Assembly: GCA_035084275.1 (NCBI GenBank)
Contig: CM068746.1
Location: forward strand, 27,280,001 to 27,344,000
DNA length: 64,000 nucleotides
Reading direction: 5' to 3'
From: Hydrolagus colliei
Taxonomy: Eukaryota
In this document: positions 390 through 54,931 of the stretch, in pieces
Position numbering within the stretch: position 1 is the first letter of the stretch
Layout: every line of letters begins with the position of its first letter
Translations under genes and position numbers: made by a program
The notes under the pieces: model-generated
Told to the model about the DNA's origin: nothing
Databases searched by the model: none
The model's input: the letters and a program-made list of their open reading frames with translations, nothing else

Positions 390-1275
390 AAGCCAGTTGA
401 GTTGGATGAAAATGGGGGTGATGGGGTCATGGAGCTTGGTGCGGAAGAGGACGCAGGCTGCAGAGTTCTGGATGATCTGCAGCCTGTGGAGGAAGAAGTT
501 GTGGGAGGCAGACAAGCAGGCCATTGGCATAGTCGAGCCTGGTTGGGATGAAGGCATGAATGTGTGTTTCAGCAGCCTTAGGGGGTAAGTATTGGCAGAG
601 TCGGGCAATATTGCGGAGGTGAGGGAAGGCAGAAAGGCTCATGGCAGGATGTGGGGGAGAAAAGACTGTTGAGGAGTGAGCAAGACACCTAGGTTCCTGA
701 TTGGCTTGGTGAGGTGGAGTGTGCAACCATGGAAATTGATACTGCCAGTGCCTGAGGTACGGAGGTGTTGGCATGAGCCAATCGGTCTTGTTGACATTAA
801 ACTGTAGAAAGTTAGCTCTCATCCAGGACAAGCAGTATGTCAGGACATCAGTGGTCCAGGAATTGAGGGTGGAGGCAGAAAGATGAAGTTGGGTATCATA
901 TGCATACATATGGAAGTTGACCCCATGACTGCGGATAATGTCACCAAGGGGAAGCATACAGATGTTGAAAAGGCGAGGGCCAAGGACAGAGTCCTGGGGG
1001 AAGCCATACAGTGACAGTGCGGGCTGGAGGAGAAGCTGAGAGGTAAGATTCGAATCAGGCAAGGGCAGGACTGCGAAGATTGAGCTGAGAGTAGAGGTGG
1101 TGTAGAAGTGGTCGACAGTGTCAAAGGTGGCAGAGCAGTCGAGGAGGATATGGAGGCAGAGGGAGCCCTGATCGCAGATGTTTAGAATATCCTTAGAGAC
1201 TTTGACCAGGGCTTTCCGTGCTGTGGGCAAAATGGAAGCTAGATTGGAGGAGTCAGATAGGGAATCGCGAGAAAG
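390..1275 (-). mobile_element. L2 LINE ORF2 reverse-transcriptase fragment (frameshifted)
   Basis: Translation contains LLDCSATFDTVDH, PQDSVLGPRLF, FHMYAYDTQL (degenerate YADD), WMRANFLQFNVNKT and AETHIHAFIPTRLDYANGLL, all L2-clade RT motifs. Confidence 0.92.
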
Positions 1276-1344
1276 AAAATAGTGAAGACTAACAACAAAA
1301 CAAAATTATATTTATGGAGCATCTTTCACGTCGGAAGGACTAAG

Positions 1345-6524: not shown

Positions 6525-6738
6525 TGAAACAAAAACAGAAGTTGCTGGGAAAACTCAGCAGATCAGGCAGCATCCATGGAGAAAGGAAAATGAGTCAATG
6601 TTTCGGGGCAATGACCCTTCGTCAGAACCCGAAATGTTGACTCACTTTCCTTTCTCCATGGATGCTGCCTGATCTGCTGAGTATTCCCAGCAACTTCTGT
6701 TTTTGTTTCAGATTTCCAGCATCTGTAGTATTTTGTGA
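6525..6738. mobile_element. Penelope-like terminal-repeat palindrome with decayed hammerhead core
   Basis: Inverted arms at about 6525-6606 and 6628-6710. Minus strand reads gttCTGACGAagggtcattgccccGAAAcatt. Flanked by ggaatacattttg (6514-6526) and ggaatatattttg (6739-6751). Confidence 0.75.
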
Positions 6739-16573: not shown

Positions 16574-16882
16574 AACAATAATAATAATAATAATCCTTGC
16601 ATTTTATATAGTGCTTTTCATGTCTTCTAGATGTTTCAAAGTGCTTCACAGAATATACTGTAAGGTGAATTGATTATATTTGTGGGCACAACGCAGCAGC
16701 CAATTGCGCACAGCAGTGTCCCACAAGTAGTCATAGATTGAGTGACTAAATTATTACTTTTTTTGAGGAATTATTATTAGGTGTGTGGAGTAAGGAAACT
16801 TGCCCAAGGTTTCTCCCTGCCAGGAATCAAACCTAAGTCTCCCGCTTGCGAGGTGAGTGCTCTAACACTGAGCTACAGGACT
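16574..16882 (-). mobile_element. Full-length tRNA-headed SINE
   Basis: Minus strand: agtcctgtagctcagtgttagagcac (A box), ggtttgattcc (B box), conserved body and (TAT)n tail. Confidence 0.92.
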
Positions 16883-18974: not shown

Positions 18975-19325
18975 TACTCAATATCTACTGCATGTTTTGT
19001 GTTCTTACTCCCAATCTGTAGCAGAACCTTGCATTTATTTGTATCAATTTGCCAGTGATCAGCCCGTGAGCTTACCCTATCAAGCTCTCCTTGTAAGACC
19101 TTTGCTATCTCCTTTGATTCACTAAGATGAAAGCAAGTTGTTATTGTTGTAATAAACACAAGAATCAAGAGGGCTCTAAAGCAAACCGTTGGGGCACACT
19201 ACTTACTATCTCCTCCATTTTAATCAAATAGAGACTCGGCTTCTTTCCCTTTAGCCAATTCTGAATTGATGTCTTGCCTTTGATGCCCATTTACCTCAAT
19301 ATTAAAACTTCAGTTTGTGAAGCAG
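18975..19325 (-). mobile_element. CR1 LINE RT fragment (old)
   Basis: Translation LQGELDRVSSRADHWQIDTNKCKVLLQIG matches the CR1 LQxDLDxLxxWxxxWQMxFNxxKCKV motif. Confidence 0.8.
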
Positions 19326-19361
19326 CTTTAATGTGATACTTAAAGTGATATTTAATGTGAT

Positions 19362-19500
19362 TTAGTTCTGACGAAGGGTTGTAGACCCGAAACGTTGACT
19401 CATTTTCCTTTCTCCATGGATGCTGCCTGACCTGCTGAGTTTCCCCCAAAACTCTGATTTTGTTTCAGATTCCCAGCATCTGTAGTATTTTTTGTTTTGC
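19362..19500 (+). mobile_element. Penelope-like terminal-repeat fragment (single arm)
   Basis: Same sequence family as the arms at 6.5 and 52.6 kb, flanked by ttaatgtgat at 19352-19361 and 19501-19510. Confidence 0.78.
19364..19400 (+). ncRNA. Minimal type I hammerhead ribozyme motif
   Basis: AGTT (stem I) - CTGACGA (19368-19374) - A - GGGTT/gta/GACCC (stem II) - GAAA (19389-19392) - C - GTT cleavage triplet (19394-19396) - GACT (stem I). Confidence 0.7.
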
Positions 19501-19569
19501 TTAATGTGATATTTTGTGAAACCCTGTTTGAAAATCTTGATATATACTGCAGTGTGGCTCTCCATAGTC

Positions 19570-19890
19570 AATTCCAGCCTGCTCCACGTCCCCCGACCCA
19601 CCCACCCCACCATTGGCGGGCGAGCCTTCAGCCACTCTGCCCCCAACCTCTGGAACTCCATCCCGCAGTCCCTCCACCTCGAGCCCTCCCTGGGCTCCTT
19701 GAAGTCCCGTCTCGAGACCCTCCTCTTCGACGGTCCCATCGGTCGCTTCAAATCCCCCTCTTTCTCTCAACCCTCCCCATCCCCAACCCCAGCTCGGATC
19801 TGAAACAATGACTGTACAGCACCTCGTCGTCCTCCTGACGTGAAAGGCGCTATACAAGTGTAATTTTGTTGTTGCTATTGTTGTTGTGTT
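19570..19890 (+). mobile_element. L2 LINE 3' fragment with tail
   Basis: Translation IGGRAFSHSAPNLWNSIPQSL...LKSRLETLLF, then gacgtgaaaggcgctatacaagtgtaattttgttgttg. Confidence 0.9.
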
Positions 19891-30033: not shown

Positions 30034-30362
30034 GGAGTTCCTGTAGTTTAGTGGTTAGAGCACTCGTCCCACAAACAAGAGGACCTGGGTTCGATTCCTG
30101 GGCAGGATGAAAAGTTGGGAGAGTTTTCCTCTGTTTACTTAGTAGTCAGTAGGAACCTGGCTGTTAGTTGATTGGTGGATCACTTTTCTGGGGTGATGAT
30201 CCCTTCAAAAATATAAAAATAATTTTCACTCCATGACTGTTTCTGGGACAATGCCGTGTTTCACCCACAAAATAAAGTCAATTTATTTTACAGTATATTC
30301 TGTGAAGCACTTTGAGAATTCTCAAAGACTTGATTAGCTGCTTTATCAAACACAGGGATTTA
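30034..30362 (+). mobile_element. tRNA-headed SINE
   Basis: ggagttcctgtagtttagtggttagagcac (A box), ggttcgattcc (B box) and the SINE tail. Confidence 0.88.
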
Positions 30363-39232: not shown

Positions 39233-41030
39233 TAACAATAACAACAACAACTTGGATTTATATAGTGCCCTCCATACCAGATGGCGCCTCAAAGCGCTTC
39301 ATAATAACAGATCCTGGGGCAGAGCCAGGAGGAAGGGGTAAAAGGTGACCAAAAGTGTGGTCAAAAAGATCTTTAGCCAGGTCTTTAGCCATGACCTAAA
39401 AATGGGAAAAGTGGGGGCAAGGTGAAGGGAGTGAGGATTGGAGTTCCAGAGCCTCGGGGCATAGTGGCTGAAGGCATGGCCGCCAATGTGGAACAGAGGA
39501 TTCGGGGACAAGGAGGAGGCCAGACCCAGTCGAGCGAAGGCAATGGGGTGCTATTGTGAGGAGAGAGGGGGTCAGAGAGGTAGGGGGTTGCAGAGGAGTG
39601 GAAGGATTTGAAAACAAGAGTGAGCATGTTGAAATCGATCTGCTCCGAGACAGGGAGCCAGTGAAGTCGGGCAAAGACTGGGATAATTGGGGAGCGAAGT
39701 TTGATACGAGTGAGAATGCAGGCGGCAGAATTTTGGATAACCTGGATTTTGTGAACGGTGGCGGGGAGGGGTGTGGGGAGGGGGCCTGGCGAGGAGGGTA
39801 TTTGAATAGTCCAGCTGAACGATGACAAGTGTTTCAACAACAACAACAACAAAATTACATTTATAGAGCGCCTTTCACCTTGGGAGGTTGTCCCAAGGCA
39901 CTGAACAGTCAGGACGGGACCCGAGCAAGGGAGAGGGGTAGGGCAGGGGGGAGAGGCGGGAGAGAGTTACGAGGGGAGGGAGAGAGTTGGGAGGGCAGCA
40001 GAAGGCACAGTCGAAGAAGAGGCGGAGAGAGCGAGGCAAAGTGACTGTGGGATAGAGTTTCACAGTATCAGAGCAGAGAGCCTGAAAGCCCGTCCGCTGA
40101 TGGTAGAACACGGAGCAGGCCGGAGCCCACTGAATGGAGGGGCCAGGGAGGTATTTATAGTGGGACAACAGTTCAGAGAGGTGGTGGTGGTGGTGGTGGT
40201 GGGGGGGATGGTTTCAGCGGCTTTTGGGGTGAGATATTGGCGAAGACAGGCGATGCGTCGGAGATGGAAGAAAGCGATGCTGGTGAGGGACCAGATGTGG
40301 GGGAGGAAGGATAATTGGGGGTTGAAGGATAATTGGGGGTTGAACCTGACTCCTAAGTTGCTTACGGGTTCGGAGAGTTTTGGGGCAAGGTCGGGTAGGT
40401 GGAGGAGGTAAGAGTCATGGGATTGAAGACGTCAATGAGAGCCAAAGAGTATAGCTTCCGTCTTGTCAACATTGAGCTGAAGGAAATTCGTACTCATCCA
40501 ACTCTTGATGTCTGACAGGCAGGCTGACAGAACATCAGTGGACTGGGGGATCGCAAAGTGAGGTGGAAAAATGGAATTGGATGTCATCCACATACATGTG
40601 GAAGTGTGCCCCATGTTTACGGATGACATCCCCAAGAGGGAGCATGTAGATAAGGAAGAGAAGGGGGCCAAGGATGGATCCTTGGAGTACCCCGCAGGTA
40701 ACTGGGAGAAAGTGGGAGGAAAAGCCGTTTGTGGAGATGTATTTTTCGTGGTTTGTGAGGTAGGACTCAAACCAGGCGAGTGGGGTCCCATTGAGGTGGA
40801 TGACGGAGGACAGGTGGTAGAGGAGGATGGTGTGATCGACTGTGTCGAAAGCGGCAGAAAGGCCCAGGAGGACAAGGAGGCAGAGTGAGCCCTGGTCACA
40901 AAGAGAGGGTAACGTTTTTGACTTTCACAAGTGCAGTCTCTGTATTGTGGGCAGGGCAGAAACTGAACTGGATGGGTTCGAAAAGGGAATGGAGGGAGCG
41001 GTGTGCGCATTCGTTGGCAACAACGCGTTC
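39233..41030 (-). mobile_element. L2 LINE fragment with a second L2 3' piece nested at 39837-40210
   Basis: RT motifs (LSDIKSWMSTNFLQLNVDKTEAILFG; IQNSAACILT; LHWLPV), two separate (GTT)n tails at about 39235 and 39837, and gtttca duplicated at 39831-39836 and 40211-40216. Confidence 0.9.
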
Positions 41031-42100: not shown

Positions 42101-42402
42101 AATAATAATAATCATTCTTGCATTTGATATACAGTAGCGCCTTCTAGATGTCTCAAAGCGCTTCACAGGATATCTTGTACAGTGAATTGACTATAATTGT
42201 GGGAGAAACGCGGCAGCCAATTGTGCACAGTGGTGTTCCACAAACATTGTGGATTGAGTGACCAAATTATTATTGTTTTTTGTGAGGGATTATTATTAGG
42301 TATATGGAGTAAGGAAACTTGCCCAAGGTTTCGCCTTGCTGGGAATCAAACCCAGGTCTTTCGCTTGTGAGGCAAGTGCTCTAATCATTGAGCTACAGGA
42401 CT
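42101..42402 (-). mobile_element. Full-length tRNA-headed SINE
   Basis: Collinear with 16574-16882, including the A and B boxes and the tail. Confidence 0.92.
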
Positions 42403-52525: not shown

Positions 52526-52791
52526 AAAAGAAACACAAAATATTGCAGATGCTGGAGATCTGAAACCAAAACAGAAATTGCTGGGAACACTCAGCAGCTC
52601 AAGCAGCATCTATGGAGAAAGGAAAGTGAGTCAACGTTTCGGGTCTACAACCCTTCATCAGAAATTGAACTTGATCAGAACTCTGAGTTCTGACGAAGGG
52701 TCGTGGACCCGAAATGCTGACTCACTTTGCTTTCTCCATAGATGCTGCCTGACCTGCTGAGTGTTCCCAGTGATTTCTGTTTTTGTTTCAC
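52526..52791. mobile_element. Penelope-like terminal-repeat palindrome with two opposed hammerhead cores
   Basis: Left arm on the minus strand (core 52633-52661, CTGATGA...GAAACGTT); right arm on the plus strand (core 52690-52718). Flanked by aagttgttccaga (52513-52525) and aagttgtttcaga (52792-52804). Confidence 0.8.
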
Positions 52792-54663: not shown

Positions 54664-54931
54664 NNNNNNNNNNNNNNNNNNNNNNNNNNNNNNNNNNNNN
54701 NNNNNNNNNNNNNNNNNNNNNNNNNNNNNNNNNNNNNNNNNNNNNNNNNNNNNNNNNNNNNNNNNNNNNNNNNNNNNNNNNNNNNNNNNNNNNNNNNNNN
54801 NNNNNNNNNNNNNNNNNNNNNNNNNNNNNNNNNNNNNNNNNNNNNNNNNNNNNNNNNNNNNNNNNNNNNNNNNNNNNNNNNNNNNNNNNNNNNNNNNNNN
54901 NNNNNNNNNNNNNNNNNNNNNNNNNNNNNNN
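54664..54931. other. Assembly gap (268 N)
   Basis: Run of n characters. Confidence 1.

What the first reader, a model, noticed from the sequence alone, without database searches (positions are those of the whole stretch)
19364..19400. Intact-looking minimal hammerhead ribozyme at the 5' edge of a 140-bp Penelope-like insertion
Seen: all conserved core residues in type I order: AGTT-CTGACGA-A-[GGGTT gta GACCC]-GAAA-C-GTT^GACT. Stem I is 4 bp, stem II is 5 bp, and stem III is reduced to the palindrome AACGTT. Established: Penelope-like retroelements carry minimal hammerheads with a vestigial palindromic stem III that is thought to fold as a dimer, and an extra nucleotide after A9 is tolerated in some natural hammerheads. 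Inference: this is a potentially self-cleaving RNA (cut after 19396) sitting in probable intronic DNA, and it is the best-preserved of four cores in the window.
Basis: partly seen in the sequence, partly recalled or inferred. Interest (0 to 1): 0.75.

Follow-up and report, generated by a model that had tools for sequence, protein, structure and literature searches.

The report
Penelope retroelement stump with minimal hammerhead
This is a real minimal hammerhead-ribozyme motif at the front of a 136-base repeat that likely came from the end of a Penelope-like jumping gene in a shark-type genome; that is a known kind of element, and this lone, ageing copy is predicted to cut RNA rarely if at all.

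Summary
The motif is there as described (19364-19400) and fits the published consensus of animal Penelope-like element (PLE) minimal hammerheads. It was the only strict hit in the window; 0 of 200 shuffles gave one. It heads a 136-137 bp repeat with five arms at three loci. Each locus has a 12-13 bp target-site duplication (0 of 3000 control pairs reach 12). Two loci are head-to-head pairs with a 30-35 bp tail on one arm only, a published PLE signature. One public run laid 16,425 contigs on the unit, and its translated 3' half appears in gene models of two sharks. No RT/GIY-YIG ORF could be linked, so membership rests on architecture. That this copy is intact is expected under neutral decay (0.7-1.1 of 4). 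Core conservation and covariation were inconclusive. Folding favours an inactive form, no intact same-strand partner lies in the window, and 'intronic' is unshown. One open point: the 5' edge is fixed at the start of helix I, possibly the RNA's 5' end. This scan noted the same kind of element on other DNA (three notes). New member of a known kind; low interest.

The parts
19364..19499 (+). Solo insertion, 136-137 bp: hammerhead-bearing end (pseudo-LTR plus tail) of a Penelope-like retroelement
   Evidence: 85-89% identical to four other arms in the window; bounded by a target-site duplication; depth in run X5 is 61 on the flank against up to 6.6 million inside
19364..19400 (+). Minimal type I hammerhead: helix I 19364-67/19397-19400, core 19368-75 and 19389-96, helix II 19376-80/19384-88, palindrome 19392-95; predicted cut after 19396
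   Evidence: Sequence; only strict descriptor hit, 0 of 200 shuffles; fits the consensus in PMC4209133 supplement; cleavage not tested
19468..19499 (+). Optional 30-35 bp tail, present on 3 of 5 arms
   Evidence: Alignment; loose-end consensus strings mostly leave the unit after the 19467-equivalent base, and 190 X5 contigs end at 19499
19352..19363 (+). Left copy of the 12-bp target-site duplication; last unit of a 12-bp tandem (19328-19361, 2.8 copies)
19501..19512 (+). Right copy of the target-site duplication (1 mismatch)
6527..6738 (.). Head-to-head pair: minus arm with a damaged core and no tail (6525-6628), plus arm starting at the 19385-equivalent base with tail (6627-6738); 13-bp duplication 6514-26/6739-51
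52526..52791 (.). Head-to-head pair: minus arm with tail (52526-52663), 22-bp spacer holding short re-copies of the unit's first bases, plus arm without tail (52686-52790); 13-bp duplication 52513-25/52792-804

Best explanation
This is a 136-137 bp insertion, flanked by a 12-bp target-site duplication, that carries a minimal type I hammerhead motif and is likely the end piece (pseudo-LTR plus tail) of an abundant shark-lineage Penelope-like retrotransposon, now likely decaying neutrally and predicted to self-cleave rarely if at all. Shown: the motif, the repeat family, the duplications, two alternative 3' ends, head-to-head pairs and a fixed 5' edge. Inferred by analogy with Anolis Poseidon: an RT/GIY-YIG protein nicked the target and began reverse transcription inside an uncut element RNA about 100 or 135 nt downstream of helix I, which gives the two 3' ends. 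It copied back to the start of helix I and sometimes folded back or switched template to build the inverted arm. Inferred: in the parent element's RNA two cores pair through ACGU, probably helped by the element's protein, and cut after U17. The solo copy lacks a nearby partner. Odds by step: PLE origin about 0.9; ribozyme active in the parent RNA about 0.7; meaningful cleavage of this copy in vivo about 0.1.
For: Motif: it matches the published metazoan consensus, and 12 of the 44 alignment rows I saw end in the same C-G-U-U; 0 of 200 shuffles give a hit. Insertion: 12-13 bp duplications with 1 mismatch at 3 of 3 loci, against 0 of 3000 random flank pairs. PLE architecture: 2 of 3 loci are head-to-head, and in 2 of 2 pairs only one arm has the tail, as described in PMC3846280 and PMC8557442; 6 of the 7 opposite-strand joints listed have one arm at 19360-19364. 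Family: 16,425 contigs were laid in X5 and 216-1,611 in three runs of a second organism; the translated 3' half sits in predicted proteins of Heterodontus francisci and Scyliorhinus torazame. Uncut template: 4 of 5 arms start at the 19364-66 equivalent and none at 19397; 19397 is not among the loose-end places shown (6 per run, 392 rows not shown). Low activity of this copy: arms differ by 6-15%; expected intact cores are 0.7-1.1 of 4; the double-hammerhead fold is -12.3 kcal/mol against -25.7 for the best two-strand fold and -9.7 per monomer; core bases 19370-73 pair with 19393-96 at probability 0.81-0.99 in three short contexts.
Against: No RT or GIY-YIG ORF could be tied to the unit: none in the 253 window ORFs scanned, none by protein search, and no related DNA in the viral, metagenome or prokaryote collections. 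PLE 5' truncation is usually variable, yet this edge is fixed within 2 nt. Target sites are only modestly AT-rich (0.62-0.83 against 0.61 for the window). Against pure neutral decay: 0 changes in the 9 cells of G8 and G12, which lie in CpGs (P about 0.07). The folding model ignores tertiary contacts and proteins, and in the 261-nt context neither the inactive fold nor helix I dominates.
Confidence: 0.8

Rival explanations
1. The unit is a self-contained non-autonomous element (SINE-like, or the monomer of a non-LTR retrozyme) copied from short master genes by PLE enzymes, rather than a stump of full-length RNA.
For: Fixed 5' edge in 4 of 5 arms; one X5 contig joins 19501 back to 19364 head-to-tail; animal retrozymes derived from pLTRs are reported, including in one chondrichthyan genome (10.64898/2026.07.22.740005).
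Against: No head-to-tail repeat at any of 3 window loci; only 2 of the 15 joints listed run back. Loose ends before 19364 share a common upstream sequence in all 4 runs (agreement only 0.40-0.48), so some copies continue upstream.
Confidence: 0.15
2. This copy has been kept by the host as a working ribozyme that cuts a pre-mRNA or non-coding RNA, pairing in trans with other copies.
For: It is the only intact core of four; related sequence occurs in contigs of three runs guessed to be RNA; the family is abundant, so partners could exist.
Against: One intact core of four is the neutral expectation. Outside the core this copy is as diverged as the others, 85-89%. No host exon was found. The nearest same-strand core, 33 kb away, is broken. 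The inverted pairs fold as long hairpins of -152 to -169 kcal/mol that bury their cores.
Confidence: 0.04
3. The resemblance to a hammerhead is chance.
For: No Rfam hammerhead model hits it; folding z-scores are unremarkable, -0.81 to 0.68; no compensatory change among 4 cores.
Against: 0 of 200 shuffles give a strict hit; the motif sits where PLE hammerheads sit, upstream of the tail, and fits every feature of the published consensus.
Confidence: 0.01

Closest known systems
Minimal hammerheads (min-HHR) in pLTRs of metazoan PLEs (Cervera and de la Pena 2014, PMC4209133)
   Same: Type I topology, CUGANGAH with the extra base before G10.1, G10.1-C11.1 pair, no loop 3, palindromic 15.2-16.2, short helix I, U-rich 5' side; mostly found as dispersed single motifs.
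   Different: No shark, skate or Callorhinchus entry in the supplementary file where Latimeria occurs (file 1 not searched). Helix II is 5 bp, shorter than the 7-8 bp reported for Schistosoma. No ORF-bearing copy was linked here.
Poseidon of Anolis carolinensis (Frangieh et al. 2024, PMC11167929)
   Same: Hammerhead about 100-135 nt upstream of two alternative 3' ends that define a tail; insertions made from uncut RNA.
   Different: There the ORF starts at helix II and cleavage was shown to need the protein. Here no ATG lies at helix II; the only ATG kept in 5 of 5 arms is at 19421, and no activity was tested.
EN+ PLE insertions with inverted pLTR and tail (Arkhipova et al. 2013, PMC3846280; Craig et al. 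2021, PMC8557442)
   Same: Head-to-head inverted ends, 30-40 bp tail on one end, palindrome or microhomology at the inverted junction, short target-site duplication.
   Different: Duplications here are 12-13 bp against 8-10 bp in the passages seen; the insertions hold no ORF; clade (Neptune or Poseidon) could not be assigned.
Non-LTR retrozymes of animals (bioRxiv 10.64898/2026.07.22.740005)
   Same: Short non-coding units with a type I hammerhead, related to pLTRs; reported in one chondrichthyan genome.
   Different: Defined as head-to-tail tandems with a hammerhead in each unit; here copies are solo or inverted.

Membership tests
Minimal type I hammerhead (PLE min-HHR) | Invariant core CUGANGA...GAAA...UH in type I order | tested here: met
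   0 of 200 shuffles
Minimal type I hammerhead (PLE min-HHR) | Extra base between 9 and 10.1, G10.1-C11.1 pair, palindromic 15.2-16.2 | tested here: met
   A19375; G19376-C19388 in 4 of 4 cores; C19393-G19394; consensus
Minimal type I hammerhead (PLE min-HHR) | Covariation in helices and preferential conservation of the core across copies | tested here: inconclusive
   0 compensatory changes in 4 cores; core 1 of 49 cells changed against 25 of 420 other non-CpG cells, p=0.50; the variant table lists nothing left of 19393, even known differences
Minimal type I hammerhead (PLE min-HHR) | Self-cleavage as a dimer or with protein help | not testable with these tools
   Only contigs were available; folding disfavours the active dimer
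Penelope-like elements (EN+) | ORF with telomerase-like RT and GIY-YIG endonuclease joined to the pLTR | tested here: inconclusive
   None found; no host assembly is held, so full-length copies could not be sought
Penelope-like elements (EN+) | Head-to-head inverted pLTR copy | tested here: met
   2 of 3 loci; 7 opposite-strand joints listed
Penelope-like elements (EN+) | Optional 30-40 bp tail on one end | tested here: met
   3 of 5 arms have it; one arm only in 2 of 2 pairs
Penelope-like elements (EN+) | Short target-site duplication | tested here: met
   12-13 bp at 3 of 3 loci; 0 of 3000 controls
Penelope-like elements (EN+) | Match to a curated PLE consensus (Repbase, Dfam) | not testable with these tools
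   No such library is on hand
Non-LTR retrozymes | Head-to-tail tandem with a hammerhead in each unit | tested here: not met
   0 of 3 window loci; one X5 contig with a whole-unit back joint
Rfam hammerhead families | Score at the family's gathering threshold | tested here: not met

The most novel reading that the evidence does not exclude
The fixed 5' edge at A19364 is the real 5' end of the element's RNA. The shared upstream sequence plus the first bases reads as an initiator-like motif with this A as +1 (motif recalled; such a match occurs at 1.2% of window positions), and the spacer at 52664-85 looks like repeated re-copying of a template end. The short copies would then be strong-stop-like products: reverse transcription starting inside the 5' pLTR and running off the RNA's 5' end. 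That would make this family a genome-scale record of PLE initiation sites and one of the most abundant hammerhead-bearing repeats in vertebrates.
Probability: 0.3. Interest if true: 0.5.

Novelty: new member of a known kind. Interest (0 to 1): 0.2.

Why it matters
As it stands it extends a known association, PLE ends with minimal hammerheads, to an abundant shark-lineage family, and it shows the PLE insertion signatures cleanly in 136 bases. It would matter more if the fixed 5' edge marks the RNA start. That would explain why solo hammerhead stumps far outnumber full elements and would let the in vitro Poseidon mechanism be tested on many natural insertions. What PLE hammerheads do in vivo is still open in the papers read, but this single decayed copy does not help to settle it.

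Tried and rejected
Rfam: no hammerhead hit. No host genome is held. DNA pattern scans found nothing in viral contigs or metagenome contigs. The 3 hits in prokaryote genomes are bare 21-nt matches in 66-68% GC DNA with no extension, rejected as chance. Run search: no RNA holder listed; X1-X3 are RNA only by guess and come from another organism, so they are not used as evidence of expression; only contigs were available, so RNA ends could not be seen. The empty variant table for 19364-19392 was rejected as evidence of core conservation, because it also misses the differences at 19380 and 19383 seen among window copies. Single joints at 19396 and 19397 (one contig each, among scattered others) were rejected as evidence of cleaved templates. 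Summed depth was not used as a copy number. Host exons: Pfam on 253 of the 337 ORFs of 55 aa or more gave only two RT fragments (the 84 left out mostly overlap repeats, the unit's arms or other scanned frames); a crude splice-site scan gave 13 candidates, judged by eye only. ORF start at ATG 19421: the frame is open for about 25 codons in two tail arms, but searches found no RT or endonuclease protein, and the 4 profile hits carry none by Pfam. An A+T-rich stretch 30 nt upstream in the loose-end consensus was not counted as a TATA box, since mixed flanks give such letters. Lunse et al. 2017 could not be read; only its title was seen.

Full report
Observation. A loose pattern gives 13 matches against 5.8 expected. 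A strict descriptor with both helices and a palindrome gives this copy alone, and 0 of 200 shuffles give any hit. Rfam has no hammerhead match. The motif fits the metazoan consensus in the supplement of PMC4209133, where 12 of the 44 rows I saw end in the same C-G-U-U.

The unit. Self-search finds five arms at three loci, 85-94% identical to each other; a profile search finds no further copy with E below 0.4. Each locus is flanked by a 12-13 bp duplication with one mismatch: 6514-26/6739-51, 19352-63/19501-12 and 52513-25/52792-804. None of 3000 random flank pairs reaches 12. The finding's insertion is therefore 19364-19499, 136-137 bp. The other two loci are head-to-head pairs. Arms end at one of two places, the 19465-67 equivalent (2 arms) or 30-35 bp further (3 arms), and in both pairs only one arm has the extension. 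Passages of PMC3846280 and PMC8557442 describe this layout for PLEs: an inverted pLTR, an optional 30-40 bp tail on one end, and palindromes at the junction. PMC11167929 (parts 1-2 of 4 read) shows that the tail lies between two internal start sites of reverse transcription and calls it unique to PLEs.

The family. Four of the five runs listed were laid. Run X5, which holds 0.74 of the words of 19000-19800 and may be the window's own source, laid 16,425 contigs, with depth 61 on the flank and up to 6.6 million inside the unit. The tool warns that this is no copy number, so I take it only as 'very abundant'. Three runs of a second organism laid 216-1,611 contigs. The commonest loose-end place in X5 is before 19364 (430), with 200 more before 19365. 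Six of seven listed opposite-strand joints have one arm at 19360-19364. A profile of the translated 3' half found 4 proteins among 1.84 billion. Two are named: gene models of Heterodontus francisci and Scyliorhinus torazame that have picked up the repeat. So the family occurs in sharks. The window's own species was not determined; its LINE RT fragment has fish relatives among the named hits.

What was not found. No RT or GIY-YIG ORF could be tied to the unit. Pfam on 253 of 337 ORFs of 55 aa or more gave two RT fragments, at 430-1305 and 40538-40924, far from any arm. Protein searches with the frame starting near ATG 19421 were empty or gave non-PLE proteins. The DNA collections held no relative, and no host assembly is held. 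No host exon was found, so 'intronic' is open.

Is the core selected? Among window arms the core has 1 change in 49 cells, other non-CpG sites 25 in 420 (p=0.50) and CpG sites 7 in 27. At these rates 0.7-1.1 of 4 cores stay intact by chance, so this copy's intactness says nothing. G8 and G12 lie in CpGs and show 0 changes in 9 cells (P about 0.07), a weak hint the other way. There is no compensatory change among four cores. The variant table begins at 19393 and misses known differences further left, so it cannot test the core. From 19393 to 19401 it shows CpG decay of the palindrome (about 9% and 10% in X5) and G19397A (1-6%), so U17 and the U-G pair are the family norm.

Would it cut? The monomer's best fold (-9.7 kcal/mol) pairs core bases 19370-73 with 19393-96, at probability 0.81-0.99 in three contexts up to 136 nt; in a 261-nt context neither this nor helix I dominates. 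The double hammerhead scores -12.3, a version that also pairs A14 and U17 scores -14.9, and the best two-strand fold scores -25.7. These numbers omit tertiary contacts and proteins. The only other same-strand core in the window is broken, and the inverted pairs would fold into long hairpins. The papers agree: no monomer activity and low dimer activity in PMC4209133 (parts 1-2 of 4); cleavage only with the element's protein, not needed for insertion, and no RNA ends at the cut site in PMC11167929; 1 of 9 frog dimers cleaved in bioRxiv 10.64898/2026.07.22.740005 (parts 1-3 of 5; its supplements are closed and may list the chondrichthyan families). The title of Lunse et al. 2017 says that such variants cleave as dimers; the paper could not be read.

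Mechanism. Most likely a PLE protein nicked the target, started reverse transcription inside uncut RNA at one of two sites, and copied back to the start of helix I, sometimes adding an inverted arm (inferred). Copies begin at 19364-66, not at the cut site 19397, which fits an uncut template. Why the 5' edge is fixed is unexplained. The loose ends before 19364 share a pyrimidine-rich upstream sequence in all four runs (agreement 0.40-0.48). With the first bases it reads as an initiator with A19364 as +1 (recalled motif; 1.2% background), and equally as a splice acceptor; in Drosophila virilis the intron ends at helix I and the element has an internal promoter (passages of PMC2377424). A stall of the enzyme, or a short master gene, would also do.

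Novelty. The kind is published. I found no paper describing this shark family in six searches (one search listed 20 of 249, none with 'hammerhead ribozyme'; one search listed 20 of 103). The one paper with hammerhead ribozyme, Penelope and shark uses 'shark' only for the shape (passages of PMC6155905). Repbase, Dfam and most subscription journals were not searchable. This scan's index holds three unchecked notes of the same kind on other genomes and none by sequence or place; they came after my reading and are not counted as support. Verdict: observation confirmed, interpretation partly supported, new member of a known kind, interest 0.2.

Noticed in passing
window 19328-19361: The target site is a 12-bp unit repeated 2.8 times on the 5' side of the insertion; it may predate the insertion or come from repeated priming during it.
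   Followed up: partly
window 52664-52685: The spacer between the inverted arms contains short re-copies of the unit's first 5-8 bases, one forming a small palindrome with the plus arm; it looks like repeated template jumps at a template end.
   Followed up: partly
window 19421-19499 and the other arms: An ATG is kept in 5 of 5 arms and opens about 25 codons in two tail arms. The same stretch looks like a branch point, pyrimidine tract and CAG acceptor ending at 19468, next to the short 3' end (motifs recalled).
   Followed up: partly
P0122 (XP_067897430.1) and P0123 (GCB70218.1): Shark gene models include translated pieces of this repeat; the Heterodontus PIP5K-domain model has two. Either annotation artefacts or exonised copies.
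   Followed up: no
runs X1 and X3, loose ends before 19384: The second organism's consensus has A where G10.1 stands; the partner base is not shown, so a compensatory change could not be checked.
   Followed up: no
window 16816-16879, 30039-30108, 42331-42402: tRNA-like heads of an abundant repeat with many copies in the window, likely tRNA-derived SINEs.
   Followed up: no
window 430-1305, 40538-40924, 19577-19883: Decayed LINE fragments: two RT pieces and a GC-rich repeat starting about 65 bp after the right duplication, with no sign of belonging to the hammerhead unit.
   Followed up: partly
window 54664-54931: Assembly gap of 268 N.
   Followed up: no
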